In this document: positions 1 to 61,143 of the stretch, in pieces | Layout: every line of letters begins with the position of its first letter | How positions within the stretch are numbered: the first letter of the stretch is position 1 | From: Anolis carolinensis | Lineage: Eukaryota | Direction of reading: 5' to 3' | Length of the DNA: 64,000 nt | Assembly (NCBI RefSeq): GCF_035594765.1 | Contig: NC_085844.1 | Location: 67,347,923-67,411,922 of the forward strand | Notes under the pieces: model-generated | Told to the model about the DNA's origin: nothing | Database searches by the model: none | What the model saw: the letters and a program-made list of their open reading frames with translations, nothing else | Program-made: the position numbers and the translations under genes

Positions 1-947
1 GCCGTTTTCCATTCATCTCCTTCTCTCACACGAATCAGATTATAAGCCCCGCGAAGATCCAGCTTGGTGTAAACTTTGGCTCCTCGAAGTTGGTCCAATA
101 AATCCGAGATTAGCGGCAATGGGTAGCGGTTCCGCTTCGTGATATTGTTCAGAGCCCTATAGTCCACACAAAGGCGTAGGTCCCCTGACTTCTTTTTCAC
201 AAACAACACTGGAGATGCAGCTGGGGACTGAGAGGGTCTGATGAACCCCTTGCGGAGGTTTGTCTCTAAGAATTCCCTGAGAGCTTCTTGCTCTGGTTCA
301 GTCAGGGAGTAGAGGTGTCCTCGCGGAATTGGGGCCCCCTCAATGAGATCAATGGTACAATCATAAGGTCTATGTGAGGGTAGTTTCTCGGCTTCTTTCT
401 CATTGAAAACGTCCCAGAAGTCTGAATACTTCTTAGGCAGGGTAATGATGGGCTCTGTGTCCGTGGCTTGACAGATCTTGGCTACTAGGCAGTGGTTCTG
501 GCAGTATTTTGAAGCAAACTGGAGTTCTCTGCTAGACCAGGAGATGTTTGGGTCATGGAGCGTCAGCCAGGGGATTCCCAAAATCACGGGGAAATGGGGA
601 ACCTCAGTGACGAAAAAAGAGATTTCTTCCATATGTTCCCTTATCCACATTCGAGTGGGCTCGGTCCATTGGCTTACTGGCTCCGTCTTCAGGGGTCGGC
701 CATCGATGGCTTGCACCACCCGGGCATTCTTGAAATCATGATATTGTAATCCCAGTGAGTTAGCATAGTCTCTATCAATGAAGTTGTTGGTTGCCCCAGA
801 GTCTATCATGGCATGGATCATGACGGGCCCCTTTTTGACTGACCATAGTGTGACCACTAGAAGAAAAAGGACTCCTGTTTGCGGCTCTTGAGTGGAATCT
901 TTGACCGGGTTGGCGAGCCCATCTACACCCGGTCGCTGTCTTCCCCC
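1..947 (-). CDS. pol: Gypsy pol (aspartic protease + N-terminal RT), -1 frame to gag, open to the window edge
   Basis: Manual translation: [82 protein letters not shown]; no stop seen from 950 to 3. Confidence 0.92.
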
Positions 948-2391
948 GCCGGCTTCATTTCGGCCGCCTCAGTAGCCTCCGCGCTCGCGGATGACGCCGC
1001 CGCCAAACGGGTAGGGGGCTTCTTCTTTGCTGGGCACTCTCTGGTGAAGTGGCCCCCATTTCCGCAGTACCAACATAGGTTCAAACGCTGTCAGCGGGCC
1101 TTTTCTGCCACATCCAGCCTAGGCCGCACGTCGCCCAACTGCATCGGCTCGTCTTCGCTTCCCAAGGGATTGGGACCTGGTTGCGGTGGTCTCCAAATGG
1201 GGCGAGGCTGGGCGCTAACGGTGGAAGGGGGTTTTGGCCCGGCTCTTCCACCCTGGCCCCGGAGCCACTGCCTCTTATTGGCTAGCAGAACTTCCGCCCG
1301 TAAGCAATGGGCAATGAGTCTCTCAAGGGAGTCTGGGGGCTCCACCTTGGAGATTTCTTCCTGCATCTCATGGTTAAGACCCTCACGAAACTGTCCTCTG
1401 AGGGCTATGTCATTCCAGCCGGTGTTTTGAGCTAACACCCGGAATTCAGCTATGTACCGTGATAGCGGTCTGTCCCCTTGGAAAAGGCGCCGGAAATTAG
1501 AAATATGGATAGACTCACATATTTATTATCAAAAAATAAAGGAGAAGCAATAAGAGAGACAGATTGGAGTCAAATCACCAATTACTTAAATAAAGAATAT
1601 GGAAAATAGAACAAGGAGAAAAGAATAAGGATAAAATCACCAACAAAAGGACAATATAATAGGACAGGAGGACGTAGAAGAAAGAGATGGAAAATTAAGT
1701 AAGGGATAAGACAAGACCCTCAAGGAAGATGATCGGAAGTCACTCAAGATTTTAATCTCTTTTTTTTTTTTTTTTTTTTTTCTCTTTCCCCCGACTTCTC
1801 TCTCTTTTGGTGGGGTCTTTCCCTGCGGGCTCCCTATTGGTCTATCCCCATCATCACCCCTCCCCCCCCCCCCACCCGAACCCTCAGTCTTGAGACCCAG
1901 TATAGAATTTTAACATGTATATAAAACTCAATAAAGATTATTAAAAAAAAAAAAAAGAAAAGGCGCCGGAGTTTGTGGCCAGCGGCCTCTTGATCATCCT
2001 CGATTCCCCAGGTATTCCGTAGGTGAGCCAAGAATTGCTGTGCGGTAGCCAGGTATGTGGAGCCCGCATCGTAGAGCGCTGTTGCCCATGTGGCCGCAGG
2101 TCCATCTAGGAGACTGTTTATCCACGCCACTTTGAGATCTTCTTGAGGAAACTCCGTGTGGCGGGCTTCTAGGTACGCCATGCACTGGCGGCGAAATACG
2201 TGAACTTTGGAGGCTTCTCCAGAGAACTTGTTTGGCAAAGCCAAAGCAGGGAGACGGGCTCCTCGATCCTTCAAGCCCCGAATCTCCCCTTCTTGCTCCC
2301 GGAGCTTGTCCCGGATCCGGTTAAACTCATCCTGGGAAATGGTGTAGCTGGCCGGCGGTGCGGCCAGTCCGGCTCCTGGTGTCACCGACAT
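923..2391 (-). pseudogene. gag: Gypsy gag, interrupted by an L1 insertion and one premature TGA
   Basis: ORFs 1834-2391 and 1091-1438 join in frame (HKLRRLF|QGDRPLSRYIAEFRVLAQNTGWN) once 476 bp (insert + one TSD copy) is removed; TGA at 1091-1093 precedes [14 protein letters not shown]; natural stop at 923-925. Confidence 0.9.
1495..1956 (+). mobile_element. 5'-truncated L1-type LINE 3' end
   Basis: 14-bp TSD GAAAAGGCGCCGGA (1481-1494, 1957-1970), AATAAA at 1930-1935, poly(A) 1943-1956; 5' part reads IRNMDRLTYLL..ETDWSQI..*, like an L1 ORF2 C-terminus. Confidence 0.85.
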
Positions 2392-2435
2392 ATTGGCCTA
2401 GGTTGCTTGGTGCTTTGGTGGTGGCGGAGACAAAC

Positions 2436-2670
2436 TGTCACACACCAGGGCAGCGGAGCACCAAAAACCAAACACGGAGGCCAATAAAACTATCTAATAT
2501 CTTTATTAAGGAAATATATAAGAAGGATAAAAGCAAGTAGTGAATATAGTTCAGAAACAGACCTTTCAAATGAGGCCTAAAATAGTCCAGGAAAAGTTTG
2601 TCCAATAAATGATATTAGAGTTCAAAGGTAAAATCCAATAACCGAAACACACACTATTGTCAGGCAATAC
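2436..2670 (-). repeat. 5' LTR (3' part) of the Gypsy element
   Basis: Ends ...TGACA on the - strand 45 nt before the gag ATG; AATAAA on the - strand at 2502-2507; far end not defined. Confidence 0.65.
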
Positions 2671-11405: not shown

Positions 11406-13248
11406 TCGGAGAAGAAGGAAGGTGAAAGGAAACAGCGATAGGGGGAGATATGCCCAATAAAATGCACAATTCCAGAGGTTAGCCAGGAGAGACAAGGAAC
11501 TATTTTTGAACAAGCAATGCATGGAAGTGGAAGAAGACAATGGGATAGGAAGGACAAGAGATCTCTTCCAGAAAATCAGAAACATCGGAGGCAAATTTCA
11601 GGCAAAAATGGGCATGATCAAAAACAAAGATGGCAGGGACCTAACAGAAGCTGGAGAGATCAAGAATAGGTGGTGAGAATATACAGAAGAGCAGTATAGG
11701 AAGGATAATAATATAGAGGATAGCTTTGACGGTGTGATGAGTTAATTAGAACCAGACATCCTGAGGAGTGAGGTTGAATGGGTCTTAAGAAGCATTGCTA
11801 ACAACAAGGCAGCAGGAGACGACGGGATCCCAGCTGAACTGTTTAAAATCTTGGAAGGTGATGCTGTCAAGGTGATGCATGCCATATGCCAGCAAATATA
11901 GCAAACACAAGATTGGCCATCAGATTGGGAAAAATCAATTTATATCCCCATACCAAAAAAGGGAAACGCTAAAGAATGCTCAAACTTCCATACAGTGGCA
12001 CTTATTTCCCATGCCAGTAAGATAATGCTCAAGATCCTGCAAGGCAGACTCCAGCAATACATGGAGCGAGAGTTGCCAGATGTCCAAGCTGGATTCAGAA
12101 AAGGCAGAAGAACGAGAGACCAAATTGCCAATATCCGCTGGATAATGGAGGAAGCCAGGGAGTTTCAGAAAAACATCTATTTCTGCTTTATTGACTATTC
12201 TAAAGCCTTCAACTGTATGGATCATAATAAACTATGGCATGTTCTTGGTGGTATGAGGATACCAAGTCAACTTGTCTGTCTCCTGAGAAATCTGTATAAA
12301 GACCAAGTAGCCACAGTAAGAACAGATCACGGAACAACAGACTGGTTCAAGATTGGGAAAGGAGTACGGCAGGACTGCATACTATCGCCCTACCTATTCA
12401 ACTTGTACGCAGACACATCATGCAACATGCGGGGCTTGAGGAATCCAAGGCCGGAGTTAAAATTTCTGGAAGAAACATTAACAACCTTAGGTATGCAGAT
12501 GATACCACTCTGATGGCTGAAAGCGAGGAGGAGCTGAGGAGCCTTATCACCAAGGTGAAAGAAGAATGTGCAAAAGCTGGGTTGCAGTTAAACGTCAAGA
12601 AAACCAAGATCATGGCAACTACACCTATTGATAACTGGCAAATAGAGGGAGAAAACATGGAGGCAGTGACAGACTTTCTACGTGCGAAGATCACTGCAGA
12701 TGCAGACTGCAGCCAGGAAATCAGAAGACGTTTACTTCTTGGGAGGACAGCAATGGCCAACCTTGACAAAATAGTGAAGAGCAGAGACATCACACTGGCA
12801 ACGAAGGTCCGCATAGTCAAAGCAATGATATTCCCCATAGTAACCTATGGATGCGAGAGCTGGACCGTAAGGAAGGCTGAGCGGAGGAAGATAGATGCTT
12901 TTGAACTCTGGTGCTGGAGGAAAATCCTGAGAGTGCCTTGGACCGCAAGAAGAGCCAACCAGTCCATCCTCCAGGAGATAATGCCCGGCTGCTCACTGGA
13001 GGGAAGGATATAAGAGGCAAAGCTGAAGTATTTTGGCCACATCATGAGGAGACAGGAAAGCTTGGAAAAGATCACAATGCTGGGGAAAATGGAAGGAAAA
13101 AGGAAGAGAGGCCGACCAAGGGCAAGATGTATGGACGGTTGACCTTGAAGGAACTGGGGGGCGGTGACGGCCAACAGGGAGCTCTGGCGTGGACTGATCC
13201 ATGAGGTCACGAAGAGTTGGAGACGACTAAACGACTGAGCAGCAGCAA
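11406..13248 (+). mobile_element. RTE-BovB LINE, 5'-truncated, with stops and frameshifts
   Basis: ALISHASKIMLKIL, QAGFRKGRRTRDQIANIRWI, FIDYSKAF, LRYADDTTL, YGCESWT, DAFELWCWR; ends gtcacgaagagttggagacgactaaacgactgagcagcagc. Confidence 0.95.
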
Positions 13249-14675
13249 GACTCGGATCTTAGGTAAGATCTGGGTCTTGGCAGGTGTGGGCCCTGTGTGG
13301 ATTAAGCCTGGGGACTGCGTCACGTGATCCCTGAGCCCAATCCACACAGCCATCTCAGTTTTTCGTGCTCCATGAGCCTGAAAAACTGAGAGGGCACCCA
13401 CCACCTCCCCCAAACCCCAAAAGAACCCTTTAAAACTTTTTTTAAAAATTTACCTGGCCTCCTCGAACTTTCCTGGCATGAGCAAATGGAGATGTGGGGA
13501 GAGGATGAGGAGCCTTAGCCTGCTACATCTCCTGATGCATCATTTCCACACACCAGGAGGGTGTGAGGAGAATCATAATGGCAGCTGGATAAGTTTTTAA
13601 AGTTTCAAGGGTTGTTTTGGGGGGCTTCGGAGTGGCTGAATGCCATCCCATTTGGTATTGGGATGGCATGTAGCCAACCCCCCCCCCCCCCCCCCAAAAG
13701 AAAGTATGGGTTTTTTGGGTGGGAATGGGAACAGAAATGTGCACCATTGCGGGTTTTGAAAACCCATTTTGGCATGCATTTCTTGGATGTCTGGAAGTGC
13801 CCCTAGAAATTCTAGATAAATATTCTATCAGGAAAAATACCTAGCAATGTATTCATGATTTTTCACTTTCACAGTAGTCCTGTGCCCTCACCCCAGTAAA
13901 TAGAAAGAGCTAACTACATAGCTATATTTTTGCCTATTTAAAGGCTGGCACTGAATTTCACTACAGTTGCTAGCATATTGTCAATGCTCTCCCACAGTAA
14001 CTGATCTGTATTTGATTACAACCAGTGGCAACAAAAAGTAGGCCAGAGATAAAAGAGTTGCTAACTGTTCCTAAATAATTGAGTGGGCTTGTATGTGACA
14101 ACAAGATGTCTTGTGTAAAATATGCATTCATTTACTATGTATTAGTGATGTCTATCTTCCTGGTCTTATTATTTATTTATTCGTTTACAAAGACTTCCTA
14201 TTTATAGGCTTTAAAAACATGTGGTGTTGTTCTCCATAAAAATCACTAAGGATGTGCTTTCACCAGATTAGGGAATTTTGCCTAAACCCAATGACATAGA
14301 TTCAAAATATTACATAGTTGTAGATCTGCACTTTTTCCATCCATCAATATGTCCTTCCATCAATTCCATAGGACTGCAGACTGAAATGAAAGTTGATCTG
14401 AGAGTAGCTAATTTTTATATTGTTTTGCTTTCAATTGAATGCATAAAACACAAGGCAGGATGTGTTGTCTGCCAGATTTTAAACTCATAGTAATTCCTTG
14501 TGTAAGGTCAGGCTGTAAGTTTCAAATGATTTTAGGATAATCTATTAGGCTTCATAACTTTTGGGAGCTTTAAAATGTGAATTTCTTCAGTTTCAGTCAA
14601 ACTATCGGATCATATATGTTTTAAAAAGCATTGTACACATCTCCTCTGAGTGTTCAGCTAGGACTCTGGAGTTTT

Positions 14676-17076: not shown

Positions 17077-18335
17077 CCATTTCAAATATACAAACATTAA
17101 AACAGGACTAAATATAAATAGTATTAAAAATTCCCAGTTAAAATCATTAAAACAAATTGATTTTAAACACCTTCATCTTTAAAAACCTGCCTGAATAAAA
17201 AGGTTTTAGCCTGCCACCTGAAAGACAGCAGGGAGGGGGCCATTCTGGCTTCCCTGGGCAGGGAGTTGCACAGTTGAGGTACAGCCAATGAGAAGACCCT
17301 CTCTCTCGTTCCTACCAACCGACCTTGAGATGGAGGTGGGACCGAGAGAAGGGCCTCTCCTGAAGATCTCAGAGCCCAGGCAGATTTGTACAAGAGGATG
17401 CAGTCAGCCAAATAGCCTGGATCCAAACTGTCTAGGGCTTTAAAGGTCATAACCAGCACTTTGAATTGTGTCCAGAAACAGACTAGCAGCCAGTGGAGCT
17501 GCTGCAACAAGGGGATTGTCCACTCCCTGTATCCAGCCTTAGTTAGCAACCTGGCTGCAGCTTTTTGGGCCAGCTGAAGTTTCCAAGCACTCTACAGAGG
17601 CGGCCCCATGTAGAGCACATTACAGTAATCCAGACAGGATGTAACTAAGGCATTTACCACCATGTCCGGATCTGGCTTCTGAAGGAACAGGTTCAGTTGG
17701 CGTACAAATTTTAATTGTGCAAAGGCCCTCCTGGCCACCACCGATATCTGGGCCTCCAGGTTCAGTGCCGAGTCCAGAAGGACCCCCAAATTGTGAACCT
17801 GTGTCTTCAGGGGGAGCATAACCCCACCCAGCACAGGTTAAATCCCTATTCCTTGGTCTGCTTTCCAACTGACCAGGAGTACCTCTTGTCTTGTCTGGAT
17901 TAAGTTCCAATTTGTTTGCCCTCATCCATTCCATTACTGATGACAGGCACTGGTTTAGGGTCAGGACAGTTTCCTTGCCATTAGGTAGAAAGGAGTAGTA
18001 GAGCTGGGTGTCATCCGCATATAGGTGGCACCGTAGTCCAAAACTCCAGATGACCTCTCCCAGGGATTTCATGTATATGTTAAACAGTATGGGGGACAAG
18101 ATGGAACCTTGAGGGACCCCATAGGTCAATGGCTGAGGATTCGAACAGGAGTCCCCCAGCACTACCTTCTGCGTTCGGCCCTCCAGGAAGGACTGGAGCC
18201 ACTGTAAGACAGTGCCTCCCAGTCCCATCCTGGCGAGATGACCCAGAAGAATCCCATGGTCAATGGTATTGAAAGCTGCTGAGAGATCCAGGAGAACCAA
18301 CAGAGACACACTCTCCTGGTCTGGCTCTCTTCGTA
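16489..18335 (-). mobile_element. L2 LINE 3' part (RT), with nested SINE
   Basis: LLVLLDLSAAFNTIDH, GVPQGSILSPILFNIYM, LYADDTQLY, LDYCN; 3' stem-loop tail and (TAA)n microsatellite at 16489-16539. Confidence 0.93.
16602..17076 (+). mobile_element. tRNA-derived SINE with an L2-type 3' tail
   Basis: A-box-like TGGCGCAGCTG, B-box GAGTTCGAGGCC (16664-16675), tail ccgccctgagtccccttcggggtgagaagggcgg then (TAAA)n. Confidence 0.85.
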
Positions 18336-20244
18336 GGACTATGTGAATGCAGCCTTGTAAAATTGAATTCCTATAGAGCCGTGACTGCACATCTAATTTT
18401 TTTTATATTATGAAAATTGTTGAATCAATCTTCATATTACATTGTACAACCTCAGTCATCTGTTTTCAAATTCACCTATTTCTTATATCATCTATTCCTA
18501 AAAATTACACTAATTCCTGAAGTTTTCTGGAATGCATTTCTTAATGCTATTAAAATAAGTAGGCCTAGACTGTGTCTGCAGCACTCAAAATATTTTTAAA
18601 TAATTTTCTCGGGATCTGGGCCTGATACAGCATAAGAGCATCCCCAAACTTCTTTGAGGTCCAGATGAATGGATGTAGGTATCTATCCAATCTATACATC
18701 CGCTTCCACTGTTTTGCCAACCAAAAGTAGCTCCCTGGCAGAACCTTGTTGCTGGTGAAGTCATTTCTGGTGAGGTCACAACGGGGCACCTGTTCATGTG
18801 ATCATCAGAAATTGCATTGCCAGCAAGTTTCTGATGGGGACCTACTTCCAACTGATGATACAGTAGTGGGTCTCTTTGATGTGTGAACATTATTTTTTCC
18901 CCAAATCCAGCCAGAACCAGCTGTACAACCTCAAAAACTCCAGGATCACTCCAAAGTTTTCTGGATAACTTGTGGTTCTCCTTATGCCGGATTAACATCC
19001 GGAAGCAATGCTTCTGCTGCAAAGCTAGTCATATGTCTTGTGGACTGCTTGCAGACATTACAATGTGATTTGGCCCTTGTTTAGTCAAAAGGGACAGAAA
19101 CTAGGTAAAAAGATGTGGAAGAATAGTGAGGCATATTAATGAAGAATGAAGAAAAGTGAATAAAATTGTTATGCAATGACAAGGAATTTACTATTGTGAA
19201 ATCATTATTCATTGAAAGTCTAGGTGTTCACTTTTTGCTATCTTTCCTGGAAATCTGCTATGTTGTCATATTATTTTCAAGAGATAAACCTGTAGAGTGA
19301 AGTTACTGCTACTGGAAGAGGACAGTGATATCTGCTTTCATGATTCCCATTTCAGTTGGACAAAAGCCTGGTCTGTTGAAAAGTTTCTCAACTCATTTAT
19401 ATGCTGTTAGGGGCAGGACTAGCATTTGAATGTGTAGCTGAAGTCATTAGCACTCTTCAAATGGCTTGTTGAACCAACTGTGAATGCTGAATGGAGGGAT
19501 ACCAAATAGCAATCTTGTCAGTAATAACAAACCTACTAAAGGAAAAATAGGAATGATTTTTAATTGACAAGACTTGTATGTGGATCAGGTGTTTGCTTGT
19601 TTGTCTGCTTGGATGTTTAGAATATTTGTATACTGAATCTCAAGGTGGAGCCTCCACATGAAAAAAGACATTAAAACAATAAACTACAACATGGACTTAA
19701 TTAAAACATAAACATAAAATGTGTAAAATGTTAATAACAGTAAAATCACTCTATAAAGGACATTCAATTGAAAGAAGCCAGGAATAAGCAGGATTTAAGA
19801 CCTATTTAGAACCAGTTTTTGGAGGGCAGCCAGGCTCATTTCTTTGGGTGGCACAAACTCTCTTTCAATTGGACCAACTTAATAGATGCTGCAGGAGGGT
19901 ATGTGTCTCATGTTTTCTGTTTTGCATAGGCTTGGTTCACATGAGTATTAGGCAGTCTTTCAATAACCAAATTTAAAGCAATGTATGTGATAAATTAACC
20001 ACCAAAATAGCTTGGTAATAATGCTGTGAGTACTGTGCGTATTGGTCAACTGTAGATTTTCTTCAGTGCAGCTTTCTTGGTAATACTTCCAGTTGTATAC
20101 ACTCAATTTTATTTAATAATTTCTGGGGCAGGGCTTTGTATTACAAGATATTTTGCTTTCCTAATATAGTTTTTTTTTTCCCCCCGTTACCTTGATGCAT
20201 TGTGTCTGTATTGTGTTGTGGCTATAATGTTGTGGCTGTAAATA

Positions 20245-29052: not shown

Positions 29053-29100
29053 GAGTAGACAAAAAAATCAAATCAGTTAATGTGGATTATCTGTTTGGAT

Positions 29101-29253
29101 AATCTGGATTATATGGCAGTGTAGAAGGGGCCTCAGGTAGGATTCTCTCTACTCATTAAGGTTTTTTTTTGGTCTACCCAAAAAAAAAAAACCCTTAATG
29201 AGTAGAGAGAATCCTACCTGAGGCCCCTTCTACACTGCCATATAATCCAGATT
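29101..29253. repeat. Near-perfect ~70-bp-arm inverted repeat (fold-back)
   Basis: 29101-29170 is the reverse complement of 29180-29253 apart from homopolymer lengths; 9-nt centre GGTCTACCC. Confidence 0.95.
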
Positions 29254-30665
29254 CTGGGCACAGAATCCAATTCTGCCCCATATTCCCAGGCCTCTCCCAT
29301 GTGGAGGGCAGCCAACCAATCTCTTCTCCCCACTGTTGCAGTAAGGCGGAAAAATTGCATTGCAACAGAATTTCTACTGCAATCTGAGGCCCCTTCTACA
29401 CTGCCATATAACCCAGATTATCAAATCAGATGGTCCAGTTTCATCCACATTTACCCACTGCTGTGCAGAGAAAATAGGAGTGCATTAAAGAGCATACACT
29501 TTTCTTTATGTCAGTAAAAGTGATATACTATTGCTTTAATGGAATCATCGATGAGAAAGAGAGTATAAAAATCTCATTTTGTGCATTATTATATCAGTCT
29601 CATCACATTTTTGATAATAAGAGCCACTAGAGAAAATTAAGGACATCTGAATAATTTTACTGCATTTAAAATTACTAAATAACAGTTTTATGAGATGTTT
29701 GTAAACTGTATAGTGGAGCGCCATCTATAAACACTTTACTTCTTTGAACTTCTGAAACAGAACTAAGGATCTACAATTATATTATGAACTTACCTTTTTT
29801 ACTGTGCCAGGAGAGAATAACCTCAACTCTGCTGGCAGTCTTCTTTACGGATTAGGCAGAAATTCATCCAATTTTGGCTGCATTACTGCAGCGTGTTTCA
29901 ATAGACAAAGTGAAATAACTTGGCTTCATGAAAGTTTCTCCCTTGTTTCTCACAAGAGCTTCCCAACATGAATAATTTGTCCTGATGAAATTGACTGGCA
30001 GTCCCTACATGTATAAACTGGAATGCTTTATGCATTTTCTAAAGTAAGTAACAGAATTGTTCATGAAAAGGGGGATTAAAATGCATTGCTTCATATGGTT
30101 TTAACTATGCCCGAAGCAGACAAGTTCTATTTGTATGGTTTTACTAATCTTTATCATTGTGTAGTTATGAAAAAACATTCATAGGAACAAAGGGGGTGCC
30201 ATGAGAAGAAAATTCTGTGATACCAGGTCAGAGGAGAAGAATGTAGAAGAGAAAGTAACCTGGAAATTTTTCAGTAGATAAATTGGAAAAGGGCTGTTAA
30301 AAACACACATACCAGGTTCTTATTGTATTATTGTATTAAATCAAATATAAAAATCCCCCTTATTATCTTGAGATTCATATCTTCGGCGCTTGGCTTTCTA
30401 TGTATTAATATATTTCTGTATAAGTAAAATGGAATAGTGGTTTGAGTAACTTTGGAGATCAGGATTCACATTTCCAGTCAGCCATAAAACCCACATAGAA
30501 AACAAACAAATCTGAACAAATCTGCCACAAAAAAACCATGTGATACAGTCACCTTAGGGTTGCCATGAGCTGAGAGAGGAGCCTCCAAGAGTCCCAGAAG
30601 CCTTCCACCTCAGAGTGGGGCCTACTATCGCCTCAGTGTCTGCAAAAGAGGCGCTGGAGGCCTAC

Positions 30666-31080
30666 TAAGGCAGGAATGAAGGGGTAGGAGGAAATGGCCA
30701 TATAAGGAGGTACGAGCAGGCCAGGTACACAGCCGATGGGTTATCACATGGTTTCCCTGAAATCATGTGTTTTGAGAGAAACGAAAGTAATGAAGAAATG
30801 TAATACTGCACCACAAATATGCACCAATGGTTTGATATGTGGGCGGTCGTAAACTGAACCCACTGAATTGTATAAATAGACACTCGACCCTGTCTGCGGG
30901 GTTCTCCCTTTTCAGCATCTAGTTGTGCGTGGGATGAACCTCTGCAGCTGCAGGAACTCTAGTAAACTGCTTTCTTTGGAAGAAAAAGAAAAAACCTCCA
31001 GTTGTCTGTCTCCTACTTCCACTGCGTCCGCACAAGACACACGACAAGCTGAGAAAAGGGGAAGTCTGGCTTCCGCTACA
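30666..31080 (+). repeat. ERV 5' LTR
   Basis: CCAAT ~30824, TATAAATA 30871-30878, AGTAAA 30961-30966, ends CTACA; no difference seen versus 35031-35445. Confidence 0.97.
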
Positions 31081-31085
31081 TTTTC

Positions 31086-31103
31086 TGGTGACCCCGACGT
31101 GAT
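31086..31103 (+). promoter_or_regulatory. Primer-binding site, tRNA-Trp
   Basis: TGGTGACCCCGACGTGAT is the complement of the 3' 18 nt of vertebrate tRNA-Trp (...ATCACGTCGGGGTCACCA). Confidence 0.92.
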
Positions 31104-31524
31104 TCCACAATAAGACGGGCCAGGAGATCGGAGACGGATCCCGTTGGCGGGACGGTCCCAACTCGGCGGTGGGGGCCAGAGGCAACTACCGTGAGACGAG
31201 AAGGGGCCCCTGAATATTGTAAGACCGGCTGCGGTACTTGCCTCTGATGCCAACGCCGGCCGACGGTGGGAGCCGCAACGACAGCGAGGTTCCAAAGAAA
31301 CCAGGCAGGGAAAAGGATCCAGGGAAAAAGTCCAGGGGCGAAGGTTGGTCCGACGTCTACAGCAATCTGGCAAGTATAGTGGTTAAATGAGACACTAAGG
31401 GAACAGCGCTGGGAGGGACACAAAGGTTCCCAGGGAGAAAAAAGGGGTTCTGTCTTGTGATTCCTGACACACACCGTTGAGTGTCCAGGTGCCCAGTCCA
31501 AGGCAGTCCCCTCTATTAGGCAGG

Positions 31525-31590
31525 ATGGGAGGCAGTGGGTTCAAATCCACCACCCCATTACAGTGTATGTTAGACAATTTCGGCTCAGTT
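31525..31590 (+). pseudogene. gag matrix N-terminal relic
   Basis: MGGSGFKSTTPLQCMLDNF resembles the MG..S..TPL.C.L..F start of class I ERV Gag; similarity is lost afterwards. Confidence 0.6.
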
Positions 31591-32185
31591 GCAAGTAGAG
31601 CCGTAGAAGGAATTCCCCAGAGAACAAGACTTGTGAGGGTGCCCCAAGACCAAGTCGTGCAGGGCTCATGAGGAGTCGCAACTCCCGGGGAAAGGAAAAA
31701 AAAAAACTGTTTGATTTCTTTGTCATGTGTGGGGAATAATGAGTTTCAAGTTCTGCATGTTTCGTGGTAATATTGAAGTGAAAATGAAAAATGAGTCTAT
31801 AGATTTACACAAAAAATGTTGAGCACAAATATCTAGAAATGTTTTATTACGGTTGAAAAAATCTGATTCGAAGAGGGTCTGTGTTAGTTTGCTTTTGCTG
31901 ACAAGCTGCAGAGAGGCGAGAAAAAGGGAGGGAGGCTGTTAAAGTGGCTCAGAAAGTTTTCCTTGTTATTTCTGAGAAACAAAAGCTGTTTTCTTAAAAA
32001 GTTTTCTTTTGCACCTGGGCCTCATGCCAAAAAGATAGTGGGAAAATCTTGGCAGACAGTCCAAGGTAAAAAAACTCCCTGTCATTCTGGTTAAACTCAG
32101 GCGAAATGCCCAGAGAAAGATAATGGAATTCCAGTGGACAGCCAAGGTCAATGAAAGCCGCTGTGAACTAGTGAAGTTTTAAAAA

Positions 32186-32324
32186 NNNNNNNNNNNNNNN
32201 NNNNNNNNNNNNNNNNNNNNNNNNNNNNNNNNNNNNNNNNNNNNNNNNNNNNNNNNNNNNNNNNNNNNNNNNNNNNNNNNNNNNNNNNNNNNNNNNNNNN
32301 NNNNNNNNNNNNNNNNNNNNNNNN
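32186..32324. other. Assembly gap (139 N) inside the ERV
   Basis: Run of N. Confidence 1.
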
Positions 32325-35008
32325 CCTGGATCTTAAATCCTTGCTTTGGACTTATTTTGGGACAACTGGGTGAGAATGTTTCATGAGCTGAGAGAGAGTG
32401 TGTGATTTTATCTAAACAACTAACCACTAATCAGAATTCCTGTGGACCTTGTGTGAATGAGATGTATGTGTTGAATTCAAAATGCATAAAGAGTTATAAA
32501 CAATGTTAGTAGATTTGTTCAGAAGCAATTCGGAAGCTGTAGATATTTTTTTTGGGGGGGGGGGAAATGGTCTTAGGCTTAAAAAAAAAAATTCCTTGTT
32601 TTGAAAGAACAATGCTTCAGTGTTTTTAGAGAACATGGTGATACAACAGATAAGAGCTGGACATCTGCCCAGAAATTGAATCTCAAGGAAAAAAAAAATG
32701 AGCCTGAACAAGTGCACTTTTGAAAACTCAAGCCTCTGTGGGCTACTCCCCCTTTTCCTGTTCTACAGACTTAAAACCCCTTACAGGTTATAGGGAAATG
32801 TTGGAGGTTCTTTTTTTTTTTTGCAGCACTTTGGAATACAGGTGATCTTGGTGAGTCAAGAAGAAGGAGAAGGAATGTGAATGAATGTTTTGGAAAGGAG
32901 AATGCTGGAGGGTTTACATTTTTGATGGACTTTATTTTCTTACTGCGTTCTCCTACATAATAAAGGTGTTTAAAGTTTGAATTTTTAAAAGCATCTTAAA
33001 ATGTGTATAACTACAGAGAATAAAGATTATGTTTATTAAGAAAAAAAATAAAAATAAATTATTTTTGAAAAAAAAAAATTGACCCCATATTCCTGACACA
33101 GAAGGATTAAGAACTGACATTGATTTTTAAATTTTTGATTGACATTTTATTCAAAAAGGGAGCTAGTGCCCAAGTGATAAAAAGTTATCCTTTTGAGAAC
33201 CAAAGACATGATATAATTGGCTACGTCTCATGTTGCTTCATAATAATTTTGTGAGATTTGGATTCTGGACTTTGTGATTTTGGCCCAACTCTTTCTAAAG
33301 GTTACGGAAAGGAAGGACTAGGACTTTTGTAAACGGGACATTAGATCATGCAAATAGGGGCATTTTTTCCATCGCCCCCAGCCTGGATTTTGCCAGATTT
33401 GAGAAGCGGCAGGAGGCTTTTCAACGTGTGTTACTAACAAATTTTGAGTTGTTCAACGAGTCGGTGTAAAAGGGGAATTGAGTAAGTTTAACACTGCAGC
33501 AGGACTGGAGTGGAAGATTGCATTGCAGCAAGTGGATACACGATTGTTAAATCGTTTGCGGAAAGGAAAAGAAAAAGATGCGGAGAAGAAAGATTTTGTT
33601 GGATTTCAAGACAGATGAGTGTGTTGTCAAAGGCACAACCTCTGAGGAGGCCTGCCTTGGATGTGAGCGAAACGACTAGAGAGAGTGCTTCAAGAGCCAT
33701 ACAGCCTGGAAGGATGAGTATTTCCCTCCCCTTCTTTTCCCTCTCATTGTTTTTTGCTACAGGTCCTGAACTCCTGTATGGGATAAACCCAGAAGTCTAT
33801 GAGACATGTTTATTGAGAGGCCTGGGAGGGCCTATAGGTGTTGCTGAGTGTTAAGGCTGTGATGGAGTGTGGCATCAGGCTGGAGGCTGTAAGGGCTGAC
33901 CAACTCAACAACATACAATTTTCTATTTTGACCCAACTCTCCTGGATAGGACCTTTTGTAATGGGACATTGCAAATAATTCGGATTTTTGACGGATTTGA
34001 GAGACAATGAGGGACTTTTTCATATGCCATCTAACAACCTTGCTTTTTAAGCCAAAAGGAGGATATAGCACGGAGACAATGTGACAAAGAATAAAATAAG
34101 TTAACCATTGCAGCAGGACCAGAGTAAAAAGGATTACTGCAGATCGCGAAAGAAGGCCCATGGAGGAATCATTTCTCAAGAGGCCATGGAGGGGTCGTTT
34201 GGGAGCTGAATAGTGGCCTACCTCCCCCACCCGTGGAGAGACAAGGGATTTCAACAAGATTGGCTGAGACAAAAGTGATGCCGAACAGGATGATCGACAG
34301 ATGGGTAATCCGTTCCCCCTCCCCCATTCTCTCTCACTGTCTTCCTGCTTTCTTTTTCAGCTTTTTGGACTCCTGTTCCAAAATTGGAGATCCATAAGGC
34401 ATTGTTACTGAGAGGCCTGTTTTCCAAAATGGAGATCCATAAGGCATTATTACTGGAAGGCCTGTTTTGGAATCCAAAACCCGTAGGAGTTTAAGTCTAC
34501 CCCACGCCACACATACTGGGTATGACAGCTAAAGCCCTGTGAGAGATGGAGATTTTCTTTACAGACTTTTCTTTACACAGAGACAATTCTTAGAGACTAG
34601 AGACTTGATTGGACAAAGAGACTTTCTTCAAATTAACTGAACATTATTCCTTTGATCAAGGAAGAGGAAACACACCCCCAGTTTGACTTTATGCCAAAGA
34701 CTGAAAAGACCTGAAAGTTGGACATGTATGTGAATGGCCACCTCTGGCCATAGCAACAAATCCATCATCGGAAGAAGCCAAATGACTGGGCTAGATCAGA
34801 ATTCTACTGTGGACTATGTCCTTTCTAAAACCTGATTAATATTTTTAATCCTCATGTGTTGTTTACCTCTGGTGATGAAACTATGTACAAATGCTATTCT
34901 GCGCTCATTTTCCACTGAAAAGATAGCTTGGCTGCAAGCTAGAAGGGATTGGAGGGACCCATAAGTCTGCTCATTTAGTTTGCTTCAGCTTTTGTATACA
35001 CGCTTCGC

Positions 35009-35030
35009 AAAAAAAAAAAAAATGGGGGAA
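35009..35030 (+). promoter_or_regulatory. Polypurine tract
   Basis: A14-T-GGGGGAA immediately before the 3' LTR. Confidence 0.85.
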
Positions 35031-35445
35031 TAAGGCAGGAATGAAGGGGTAGGAGGAAATGGCCATATAAGGAGGTACGAGCAGGCCAGGTACACAGCCG
35101 ATGGGTTATCACATGGTTTCCCTGAAATCATGTGTTTTGAGAGAAACGAAAGTAATGAAGAAATGTAATACTGCACCACAAATATGCACCAATGGTTTGA
35201 TATGTGGGCGGTCGTAAACTGAACCCACTGAATTGTATAAATAGACACTCGACCCTGTCTGCGGGGTTCTCCCTTTTCAGCATCTAGTTGTGCGTGGGAT
35301 GAACCTCTGCAGCTGCAGGAACTCTAGTAAACTGCTTTCTTTGGAAGAAAAAGAAAAAACCTCCAGTTGTCTGTCTCCTACTTCCACTGCGTCCGCACAA
35401 GACACACGACAAGCTGAGAAAAGGGGAAGTCTGGCTTCCGCTACA
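35031..35445 (+). repeat. ERV 3' LTR
   Basis: Direct repeat of 30666-31080. Confidence 0.97.
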
Positions 35446-36129
35446 CTACCATTGCCCCTGCCACCAATCCGGAGCCTACCATTGCCATAGCTCCGCTGCT
35501 TGGGTGGGGGCCCCTATCGTTCCTCTGCCACTTCGCTCCCGGATTACGATCCTCCCTCCCTCACTGCTGCTGCCTGCATCGGAGGCCCAACACTGCTACA
35601 GCGGGGCTTGCTGTCACCCTGCTGCCCACGCAGGGACACAAGAGGCCTGTCACCAGCGGGCGGCTGCATCTAGGCTTCACCATTGCCCCGTCACTGAGAT
35701 CAACTGTGGCCTACTTGGCCAGTGAGTGACTACATTGAGCTGCTTTTACCATTGGACATTTTCCATCATTGCCCCCTCTGATGTTGCTGCAGCTGTTGCG
35801 TTCAAACCAGATAGGCTGTCCTGGGGCCTCCTCCACTGTTTAGCCCCTGGCTACTGTGTTCCACTGCTGGCTTGTTTCACCGCCATTATCATTGTTGCCC
35901 TTGGAGGAGATGCTGTTGCTTATCATCACACAGTGTTTGAACTTTTATTAGTAAGCCACTCCTTTGCCCCCCACCCACCCAAGAACAATTGGGTGTGGGG
36001 TGAATTGGACTAATTTTAGGTGGGTGTAAACTGTGTCTGACAACAATTTGAGGGTGTTGAACTGCTATTTATCAGAGTTTTGGCCGTTTAAGCCACCAGA
36101 CTGTAAGATCTGTATTTTTGATATGTTTG

Positions 36130-57868: not shown

Positions 57869-58632
57869 ATTTATTTATCATATCAGACATGAACAAAGGA
57901 TACAGTTGTAATGTATTTAGAAATGCAAACACGGTTTTAAAAACTTGGCGTTATACTAAATGTCCTTTAACCAGTATCTAGCCACTTGGAGCCCCTCTGG
58001 TGTTGCTATAAGAAGGTCCTCCATTGTGCATGTGGCAGGGCTCAGACTGCAGTGTAATAGGTGGTCTGTGGCTTGCTCTTCTCCACACTCATATGTCGTG
58101 GACTCCACTTTGTGGCCCCATTTCTTAAGGTTGGCTCTGCATCTCGTGGTGCCAGAGTGCAGTCTGTTCATCACCTTCCAAGTCTCCCAGTCTTCAGTGT
58201 GCCCACGAGGGAGTCTCTCATACAGTATCAGCCATGGCTTGCCATGCAACTTTTGGATTCTCGCTTGCTGGGGTGTTCCTGCAAGTATCTCTGTAGATCT
58301 CAGAAAACTATTTCTTGATTTAAGGCATTGGCATGTTGGCTGATATCCAAACAGGAGATGGGTTGGAGATGTCACTGCCTTGGTCTTTTCATTATCGGCT
58401 GCTACTTCCCGGTGGATGTCAGGTGGTGCAATACCAGCTAAACTGTATAATTTCTCCAGTGGTGTGGGGCGTAGACATCCTGTAATAATACAGCATGTCT
58501 CATTAAGAGCAACATCTACTGTTTTAACGTGGTGAGATGTGTTCCACACTGGGCATACGTACTCAGCAGCAGAGTAGCAAAGTGCAAGGGCAGTTATCTT
58601 CACTGTATCTGGTTGTGATCCCCAAGTTGTAT
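57869..58632 (-). mobile_element. Vingi (ingi/I-group) LINE 3' end
   Basis: ORF 57956-58603: TALALCYSAAEY.CPVW, IITGCLRPTP, AGIAPPDI, NRL.SG, degenerate C-terminal C.CG....TDHLL.C zinc motif. Confidence 0.85.
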
Positions 58633-61143
58633 GAATGGTTTCATTGTTTTAAAAAGTGATCTTCATATAACTATTGCTATTGGTTTTTAAAAATGCTTTT
58701 ATGGTGTACTGTCTTTTTTGCATCCCCTTGTTGGGGGGGAAACACACAATATAAACGATGATGATGATGACGATGATGATGATGATAGAAGTCTGCCAAC
58801 AGCAATTGACTGAAAGATAATACTTTTGAAGAAGCTTACTGCTCACTTGTGTGAATGAATGAGTTTTCTTACAAGGTGACACACAATGTTCAAGTATTTA
58901 TTTATTTATCTATTTAGAATACTTATTTAGACTCCAAACATCCCAGTCATAAAAACGATGTGAAACAGTTCTGAAAAAATATAAATAATATAAAATAATT
59001 GACAATTTTAACAGCAGAGGACACAAAGGAAAGGCAATCCTGAAATTCAGTAGATCAAAACGAAGCCATTATCAGTAATTTCCAAAAGCTTAGGAAATCA
59101 TTTAATCTTAACGTTGTGGCAGCAAAACAGCCAACAGCTGTAGCCATTGGGCTTTTGTATTTCATCATGTATGCTTGAAAGAACTGCCATTTTTTCAGAT
59201 TGCAGTCATTCCATACCACAGTTATGGCCAATTTCCACCTACGGATTAGAGAAACCCTTCAAACCTATTTAGACAGGCCTTCAGTTGGCAAGCATACAGT
59301 TTGCCACCAAGAAGAGACTTACCTGCTTGATAAAGCCTGCCAGGATTTATGCCTTGATAGTCCACAGTCATTTACCACCACAAAGAAGCAGGTGTTAAAA
59401 TTTCTGGACAGGAAAGAAGTGCTTGATGCAAAATCTTCTTAATTCAGTTCACATGATAAAGAAGCAAGTAACAAAACAATATTTTATCTATGTATGAAAT
59501 TGTTTCTTGTCTTTAACATCTCCAGAAACAACAGTCAGCAGGTAACAAAACTGACTTTTAAGAATGCTTTCCCCTAGTTAGAACTTCTTTGTGACCAGGT
59601 TCCCTTCCTAAAAGCTGCCATATTTTACAAAACTTAACAAACTAGCTTTTGAGGACATTTTTGATCATGTTTGCAAGATGATATAAAACTTTTACAGTAG
59701 ATTTTACCATACAAAGTTGTTGAATAAAGTACCATATTCCATCCAAATTCTTAAAATATTGCATATATAACACTGTCTTTGTTGTGATTCAAAAACTCCA
59801 TGATTATTGTCCTGACATAAAGAAGGGTCAGAGAGTATATTTCATTGCGTCATGGCATATCGTGTGAAAAATTACCATCAGTAACTTTTCCATCAAGGAA
59901 TTAGCAAAGAAAGGCTTGACCCAGTTTGGCACTTTGAATGCAAACAAACTATAAATTATCCTGGCTCAAAAGTTTGTGAGCAGCAATGTCTGGTTTTAAA
60001 AAATATTTGATGTATGTTTATTATATACCAATGAAATCACCATGATTCCTTATTCTTTGGCGTGTAAAATACAGAACCTCTTACCGAGAATATCATTTAT
60101 ATCAATGACTTCTTGGAGTCTATGAACCAGAATATTTGATAGATAGTCTTTTTTTCTTAGCCATGGAAGGTTAAACTCACCATCCTTCTCATTTTCTTTT
60201 CTCCTGCCTCTTTCTAAATAGCCTCCAGTTAGAGACCTTAAAAATGCTAAAGTGTACACATTATATACTTATATTTTCAGATAAGAGAGATAAATAAATG
60301 GTGGTAGATAAGTAACTTGGTTGTATAATTAGGTCATGACATGGTCAATTATGAAAAAGTTGTGATTCATATGAGGGTAAAGTAAGGAAGTAATGTTATA
60401 TTCTGAGAGATAAAAGTACTCCAATCCCAAGAATGATATTTGGCTCGCACTACTGCCTGGGCAAGCACTGTCATTTGCTTTAAATGACTATTTCTCTGTT
60501 CAGTTAATGAGTTTGGAAAGCTGAACATGAGTCAGCCTAATCCATCCAGACTTTAGCAGGGTCAGGCACTAAGCCTGGAGGGAAATTACTCAAGATGGCA
60601 TATAGACTTTTGTGATGATTCTCAAGTTCTGTGGAAGCCTGTGAATCTGGCACATGATTCTTGCCAATTTCTTAGGGTAACCAGCTTGTTTTAAGATTAT
60701 GTTTTACAAGGTCTTTGTGTGAATTTGATGGGAGAAAAGCAGATTAAGTCTGATAATGTATTCTAAAGTTAAATATAACCATGCATTCAGAGAATTCAGT
60801 CAACACAAACTATAATCCTCCATCCATGTGCCCAAGTAGCAAAAAATCAGACAGCTTAATATTGTGCGTTAGAGTTAGTTGCTAAGGTTCAAGCCGTTTG
60901 ATATGTAAATGCTGCAAGCATAGAAGTGTTTTCCAATCCTATCACATTACATATTGCCTTTTACAACTACTACTGATCTCTAGTACCAAGGCTCATAAAT
61001 GATCCATATGATAAAATACAAAAACCATAACAGATTCTGCTAGCCAAAAATCCCTGTCCTGTTCTTAACCCAAACCTCATGATCATTAGATTAGCAATTA
61101 GACCTTCTAGCCTAGCATTTTGGTAATACTTGAATATTGTTGG

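What the first reader, a model, noticed from the sequence alone, without database searches (positions are those of the whole stretch)
30666..35445. Very young but coding-dead ERV: identical LTRs around a non-coding interior
Seen: no difference between the 415-bp LTRs on reading; perfect TSD, PBS and PPT; yet only ~20 codons of gag survive and the rest is AT-rich with homopolymer runs. Inference: the interior had decayed before integration, so this is a non-autonomous family recently mobilised in trans by a helper retrovirus. That implies a recently active, possibly undescribed, squamate class I retrovirus. This is the best candidate in the window.
Basis: partly seen in the sequence, partly recalled or inferred. 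Interest (0 to 1): 0.7.

Follow-up and report, generated by a model that had tools for sequence, protein, structure and literature searches.

The report
Gene-less retrovirus hitchhiker in green anole
This gene-less retrovirus remnant is one of well over a hundred young copies in the green anole genome, other anoles carry an empty site at this spot, and it is likely copied by an already reported intact anole retrovirus whose packaging region it appears to have borrowed.

Summary
Observation confirmed: the 415-bp LTRs are identical, with a 4-bp TSD, tRNA-Trp PBS and PPT, and no long ORF. The element belongs to a young non-coding family: 150 exact PBS-leader matches and 378 LTR starts. All 67 paired siblings examined are non-coding; 23 of 36 chromosome-1 pairs have identical LTRs. 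The empty site is present in 3 of 3 runs laid on both flanks, so the insertion is polymorphic. The likely helper is not new: it is Acar.ERVi.1 (Wang & Han 2023), about 200 copies here. It shares the U5 end, PBS, leader and PPT. New detail: the leader is 89-95% identical to helper leaders, inside the helper's own range, while gag start and LTR are only 72-77%. An older element therefore likely captured the invader's packaging region by recombination. The interior is a patchwork: decayed pol, an old duplication, a Penelope-like scrap and an env tail. It is a VL30/ETn/recKoRV-type parasite, a new member of a known kind. Trans-mobilisation is inferred, not shown.

The parts
30662..30665 (+). 5' target-site duplication (4 bp)
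   Evidence: single copy in the empty allele
30666..31080 (+). 5' LTR, 415 bp, TA...CA termini; CCAAT 30824, GC box 30841, TATA 30871, polyA-like hexamer 30961
   Evidence: motif roles are inferred
31086..31103 (+). Primer-binding site, tRNA-Trp type
31071..31524 (+). Block shared with the helper: U5 end, PBS and leader up to the gag ATG (predicted packaging region); likely captured by recombination
31525..31671 (+). gag stub: about 31 matrix codons homologous to the helper, then unrelated; 48-codon ORF
31617..34835 (+). Non-coding core, homopolymer-rich, mostly without detectable homology
32186..32324 (.). N stretch; the matching span in siblings is short and AT-rich
33247..33422 (+). Decayed pol remnant (RT thumb/connection region)
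   Evidence: 8.9 bits vs shuffles up to 4.0; 27.7 bits vs controls up to 21.6, next motif colinear (2 of 300 shuffles reach it)
33269..34473 (+). Old tandem duplication of about 600 bp (33269-33868 vs 33917-34473, about 68% identical)
   Evidence: E 2.6e-15; score 152 vs shuffle maximum 77.5
33634..33711 (+). Captured scrap of a common host repeat with a hammerhead-type core, changed at stem II and at the presumed cut site; likely Penelope/Poseidon-derived and inactive
   Evidence: assignment inferred from passages of PMC11167929; Rfam gave no hammerhead hit
34376..34465 (+). 45-bp tandem pair
34836..34964 (+). env tail: last 42 codons (membrane anchor end, cytoplasmic tail) and stop
34965..35030 (+). 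3' untranslated stretch and polypurine tract (35009-35030); 90% gap-free identity to the helper
35031..35445 (+). 3' LTR, identical to the 5' LTR
35446..35449 (+). 3' target-site duplication

Best explanation
This is one recent, polymorphic insertion of a non-coding class I ERV family of the green anole, likely packaged, reverse-transcribed and integrated in trans by the co-resident intact ERV Acar.ERVi.1. Shown: family size, youth, lack of genes, polymorphism, and cis signals shared with Acar.ERVi.1. Inferred: the 5' LTR makes a full-length RNA in the germ line; helper Gag recognises the shared leader; helper RT primes on tRNA-Trp and the shared PPT; helper integrase accepts the TA...CA ends and leaves 4-bp duplications. 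Also inferred: the lineage is old (LTR, gag stub and env tail 25-40% diverged from the helper) and gained the helper's leader recently by template switching between co-packaged RNAs, which would explain the burst.
For: Family: 150 exact PBS-leader matches, 378 LTR starts, 0 in reversed controls. 67 of 67 paired siblings non-coding. Youth: 23 of 36 chromosome-1 pairs have identical LTRs, 0.15% mean substitutions over the 34 unsplit ones; 8 solo candidates against 40 proviral copies on chromosome 1 (hand tally). Empty allele with one CTAC in X1, X4, X6. Helper: 376 exact shared U5-PBS junctions; 7 of 22 sampled helper copies have full-length gag, pol and env frames, 7 of 22 identical LTRs, 21 of 22 matching 4-bp TSDs; RT equals Acar.ERVi.1. 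Leader exchange: window and an older sibling are 88.5-95% identical to 24 helper leaders (helper-helper minimum 86%), gag first 90 nt 72-75% (helper to helper 92-100%; one copy with a deleted gag start left out), LTR 73-77% (84.5-99%). Identity steps from about 43% to 89% at the U5 end and falls to about 70% at the gag ATG. The second intact ERV family uses another PBS and gave no DNA match.
Against: No packaging, transcript or new insertion was observed. The U3 end is TA while the helper's is TG, so the helper integrase must tolerate it (untested). The LTR bodies differ, so co-expression is not guaranteed. Only the best 150 of about 500 Gag_p30 and integrase candidates were scored, so a rarer, closer autonomous family cannot be excluded. 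The leader tree has no outgroup and keeps the non-coding copies as one clade, so the direction of exchange is not fixed. The leader folds no better than shuffles (z -0.76), so its packaging role rests on position. Contigs cannot show whether the three animals also carry the filled allele.
Confidence: 0.83

Rival explanations
1. A closer, still unseen autonomous parent (same TA-start LTR, same gag start and env tail) supplies the proteins; Acar.ERVi.1 is only a cousin.
For: LTR, gag stub and env tail are 25-40% diverged from Acar.ERVi.1, so a separate parent lineage once existed. Family searches scored only the top 150 candidates.
Against: No coding copy among 67 paired siblings, including 36 of the 37 LTR pairs on chromosome 1. 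The long copies hold nested insertions, Gypsy-type where read. The interior carries a 32%-diverged duplication, so the parent's genes were lost long ago.
Confidence: 0.08
2. Same helper, but the high leader identity reflects selection to stay packageable since a common ancestor, not recent recombination. This rivals the capture step only.
For: Cis signals are what a parasite must keep; PPT and U5 end are also conserved. Diagnostic sites in one intermediate helper copy are interleaved, not in a block.
Against: Among helpers the leader changes faster than gag or pol (88-93% where pol is 96-98%). It is unlikely to stay at 95% while the adjacent gag start falls to 73%. The block has sharp edges.
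Confidence: 0.2
3. Another resident retroelement (the 9.2-kb tRNA-Pro ERV family, or Gypsy elements) does the mobilising by promiscuous packaging.
For: That family is also young with open frames. Mouse VL30 is packaged without an identified conserved signal (PMC4859993 passages).
Against: Different PBS, no DNA similarity to the element. The element shares primer, leader and PPT only with Acar.ERVi.1.
Confidence: 0.06
4. LTR identity is an assembly collapse or gene conversion in an old insertion.
For: No reads from the assembled animal were laid; the window has an N stretch.
Against: The window's two LTRs match each other better than any other of the 40 scored LTRs. Most siblings show the same within-copy identity while differing between copies. 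The empty site exists in other animals.
Confidence: 0.02

Closest known systems
Acar.ERVi.1a/1b, invading ERV of Anolis carolinensis (Wang & Han 2023, PMC10435555; abstract, first 10,000 characters, passages and supplement searches seen)
   Same: It is the helper family found here: RT rows match by eye; published lengths 8,312-8,317 bp against 8,300-8,387 bp for 18 of 22 sampled copies. Shares U5 end, PBS, leader and PPT with the element.
   Different: [quoted passage not shown] It lists two loci; about 200 shared junctions here are helper-type.
Mouse VL30 (PMC4859993, passages seen)
   Same: About 5-kb non-autonomous class I-type element; LTRs, PBS, PPT, TSD; stop-ridden gag and pol remnants; 42 of 86 full-length copies with identical LTRs; packaged by MLV.
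   Different: VL30 packaging and retrotransposition are tested. VL30 has no env trace, more solo LTRs than full copies, and no conserved packaging signal was found in mouse copies. No sequence comparison was made here.
Mouse ETn with MusD helper (PMC12283350 passages; Mager & Freeman 2000 and Ribet 2004 seen only as reference titles)
   Same: Non-coding family mobilised in trans by a related coding family with which it shares cis regions.
   Different: Class II, tRNA-Lys primed; ETn and MusD share LTRs, whereas here the LTR bodies are only about 74% alike. The anole helper keeps an env gene.
recKoRV (KoRV x older degraded retroelement; Lober et al. 2018, PMC6112702, abstract and opening seen)
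   Same: Recombination between an invading retrovirus and an older degraded element yields non-coding copies that spread in the germ line.
   Different: recKoRV keeps the invader's ends (recalled). Here the old element keeps its own LTRs and appears to have taken only the leader.

Membership tests
Non-autonomous class I ERV (VL30/ETn kind) | Paired LTRs, PBS, PPT and a short TSD | tested here: met
Non-autonomous class I ERV (VL30/ETn kind) | No intact gag, pol or env in family members | tested here: met
   67 of 67 paired siblings
Non-autonomous class I ERV (VL30/ETn kind) | Amplified as a non-coding unit (dispersed copies, distinct TSDs, young LTRs) | tested here: met
Non-autonomous class I ERV (VL30/ETn kind) | Coding relative in the same genome sharing cis signals | tested here: met
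Non-autonomous class I ERV (VL30/ETn kind) | RNA is packaged and copied by the helper's proteins | not testable with these tools
   Indirect only: leader exchange
Acar.ERVi.1 (the element itself as a member) | Intact gag, pro, pol, env and the helper-type LTR | tested here: not met
   No genes; LTR 73-77% gap-free identity, shuffle baseline 62%. It is a partner family, not a deletion copy.
Acar.ERVi.1 (helper family found here) | RT sequence and length match the published entries | tested here: met
   RT compared by eye with the trimmed alignment rows
recKoRV-type recombinant | Segment of the invading virus joined to an older degraded element | tested here: met
   Leader block 31071-31524; direction of transfer not fixed
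recKoRV-type recombinant | Invader's LTRs retained (recalled feature) | tested here: not met
   The element keeps its own LTR
Existing Repbase/Dfam Anolis ERV1 entry | Match to a catalogued consensus | not testable with these tools
   No such library is on hand; paper search for the naming pattern gave 0

The most novel reading that the evidence does not exclude
An ancient gene-less ERV lineage of the green anole was revived by capturing the packaging leader of the invading retrovirus Acar.ERVi.1 and now spreads about as fast as its helper, as a heritable defective-interfering parasite that competes for the invader's particles in a reptile germ line today.
Probability: 0.4. Interest if true: 0.65.

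Novelty: new member of a known kind. Interest (0 to 1): 0.45.

Why it matters
Screens for invading ERVs keep only intact proviruses and miss parasites like this one, which here approach the helper in number and are on average younger by LTR divergence (0.15% vs 0.44%). It offers a reptile case, in a model lizard with population data, of how an old element can hijack a new retroviral invasion through one leader swap. It also adds many polymorphic 4.5-kb promoter-bearing insertions as markers and possible mutagens. The kind of system is known from mouse and koala, and the helper is already published.

Tried and rejected
The 9,866-bp copy (L031) looked like a helper but is a sibling with a nested Gypsy/chromovirus-type insertion; other long copies also hold insertions. 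The second intact ERV family (L156-L158) was rejected as helper or parent. L140 was first read as a one-step recombinant; its diagnostic sites are interleaved and it fits an older helper sublineage. My first frameshift-aware script was insensitive and mis-tracked starts (best 40.4 vs shuffles up to 38.8), so it was replaced. The second duplicated unit shows no pol signal (91 of 200 shuffles reach it), nor does the rest of the core. nhmmer of the core against nine autonomous-type loci found only the host-repeat scrap. Rfam found no hammerhead at that scrap. Leader folding was not significant. ARAGORN found no tRNA in the window. Run X2 was laid on the 5' flank only; run X16 was uninformative at the site. 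Dropped rows: L174, L176, L178 (second LTR not located) from the helper count of 22; L204 (3' LTR end not found) from the chromosome-1 count; L048-L050 are solo LTRs. The pattern caught only one helper LTR subtype (87 hits) and was not used as a count. PMC525684 and PMC112243 are not held. The main supplementary PDF of PMC10435555 was too large to read and may bear on the helper's placement.

Full report
Observation. The element spans 30666-35445. Its LTRs are identical over 415 bp and bounded by CTAC on both sides. The PBS is of tRNA-Trp type and a PPT precedes the 3' LTR. The longest sense frame is 120 aa and 7 interior frames gave no Pfam match. The termini are TA...CA. The host is the green anole: the helper's Pol is 99% identical to an A. 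carolinensis UniRef entry, as earlier scan notes also said.

Family. Exact patterns give 150 PBS-leader junctions, 378 LTR starts and 70 junctions of the window's LTR subtype, with 0 in reversed controls. I examined 67 distinct paired siblings: 37 chosen by similarity and 30 more from a chromosome-1 census. All keep the same layout and none has gag body, pol or env body. On chromosome 1, a hand tally gives 85 LTR starts: 37 pairs, 3 further proviral copies and 8 solo candidates, 7 of them confirmed with TSDs. Scaled up, that is about 175 proviral copies (extrapolation). Of 36 pairs measured, 23 have identical LTRs; the mean over the 34 unsplit pairs is 0.15% substitutions. One identical 415-bp pair alone bounds divergence only below about 0.7%, which is up to a few million years at recalled, uncertain lizard rates.

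Polymorphism. In runs X1, X4 and X6 (three studies) one contig each (862, 470, 352 bp, same depth in both calls) lies on 30511-30665 and on 35446 onward with a 4-base overlap. That is the empty site with one CTAC. X2, laid on the 5' side only, runs on past 30665; X16 was uninformative. Contigs cannot exclude a filled allele in the same animals.

Helper. Gag_p30 and MLVIN_C searches returned 502 and 468 candidates, 150 scored each; about 105 of the 150 best integrase hits sit in frames of 1,184 aa or more (hand count, best-scoring and so biased). The family has matrix, capsid, protease, RT, RNase H, integrase and a gamma-type envelope. It shares the U5 end and PBS exactly; 376 junctions carry this shared word, leaving about 200 as helper-type. 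Of 22 sampled copies (5 picked from earlier hits, 17 from chromosome 1; 3 more dropped), 7 have all three full-length frames, 7 identical LTRs, mean 0.44%. Its nearest Pol relatives in other species are squamate at 52-59%. Wang & Han 2023 list Acar.ERVi.1a/1b as polymorphic intact ERVs, and their RT rows match this family by eye. So the helper is published.

Mosaic. Against the helper, the leader from PBS to gag ATG is 90-93% identical, the first 90 nt of gag 73-75%, the env tail 61-67% and the LTR 73-75% gap-free with a shuffle baseline of 62%. Across 24 helper copies, the window's leader is 88.5-93% and an older sibling's 91-95% identical, within the helper-helper range (minimum 86%). The gag start stays at 72-75% where helpers are 92-100% alike (one copy with a deleted gag start left out). 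Helper leaders change faster than helper pol, so selection alone is a poor explanation. The block has sharp edges at the U5 end and the gag ATG. I infer template switching between co-packaged RNAs. The tree of 44 leaders keeps the non-coding copies as one clade attached among helper sublineages, but it has no outgroup.

Interior. One stretch, 33247-33422, is decayed pol: 27.7 bits against at most 21.6 in 10 shuffles, antisense, reversed and 5 flank controls, with a colinear second motif reached by 2 of 300 shuffles. It overlaps a 600-bp duplication whose units are 68% alike, so the lineage has been non-coding for a long time. A 78-bp scrap matches a common host repeat with a hammerhead-type core, changed at the presumed cut site; I assign it to Penelope/Poseidon by the description in PMC11167929, not by direct comparison, and Rfam did not call it. 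The rest has no detectable origin.

Mechanism. Likely: LTR-driven full-length RNA, packaged through the borrowed leader by Acar.ERVi.1 Gag, primed on tRNA-Trp, and integrated by helper integrase despite the TA end. The anatomy, copy number, youth and polymorphism are shown; transcription, packaging and the enzyme source are inferred. Whether spread is inside cells or by reinfection with helper envelope cannot be told.

Known and new. It works like VL30 with MLV or ETn with MusD, and echoes recKoRV. Six searches with Anolis terms listed no paper that by title or abstract describes this family; apart from passages of PMC5753468 I saw only the listings. Repbase and Dfam could not be checked, so it may be catalogued. 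Verdict: real, well supported, a new member of a known kind; the leader capture is the most interesting part. Interest 0.45.

Noticed in passing
L039, L125, L129, L145, L147 (vs L043; helper copies): Five of 67 siblings read ATAA before the 5' LTR and ATAT after the 3' LTR; only one has a perfect ATAT, while 4 of 4 helper ATAT sites are perfect. One sibling (L034) has a 3-bp TSD. It may be linked to the TA end; unexplained.
   Followed up: partly
L156-L158 (G000:C2:117455300-117465290 and others): A second young gamma-like ERV family, about 9.2 kb, tRNA-Pro-type PBS (recalled), 559-bp LTRs 99.8-100% identical; 45 matches. It is not among the two Acar.ERVi entries seen.
   Followed up: partly
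L031, L141, L143-L144, L154: Other retroelements with long open frames (Gypsy/chromovirus type in L031 and L141) have inserted into these young ERV copies, so they are younger still.
   Followed up: partly
L151-L152 (G000:C2:1410900-1423000): Tandem array of the non-coding element with shared LTRs, about three units.
   Followed up: no
L116, L118: A further ERV family with about 530-aa env frames and broken pol.
   Followed up: no
L111-L114: The helper's gag ends in TGA in frame with pol, not the TAG recalled for MLV-type readthrough.
   Followed up: no
window 861-2487, 11902-13258, 17163-18402, 57956-58648: Ordinary broken retroelement fragments (Gypsy gag, RTE-like, CR1/L2-like and another LINE), labelled from recall of their translations.
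   Followed up: no
window 29083-29437: Short inverted and direct repeats of a common anole repeat just upstream of the element.
   Followed up: no
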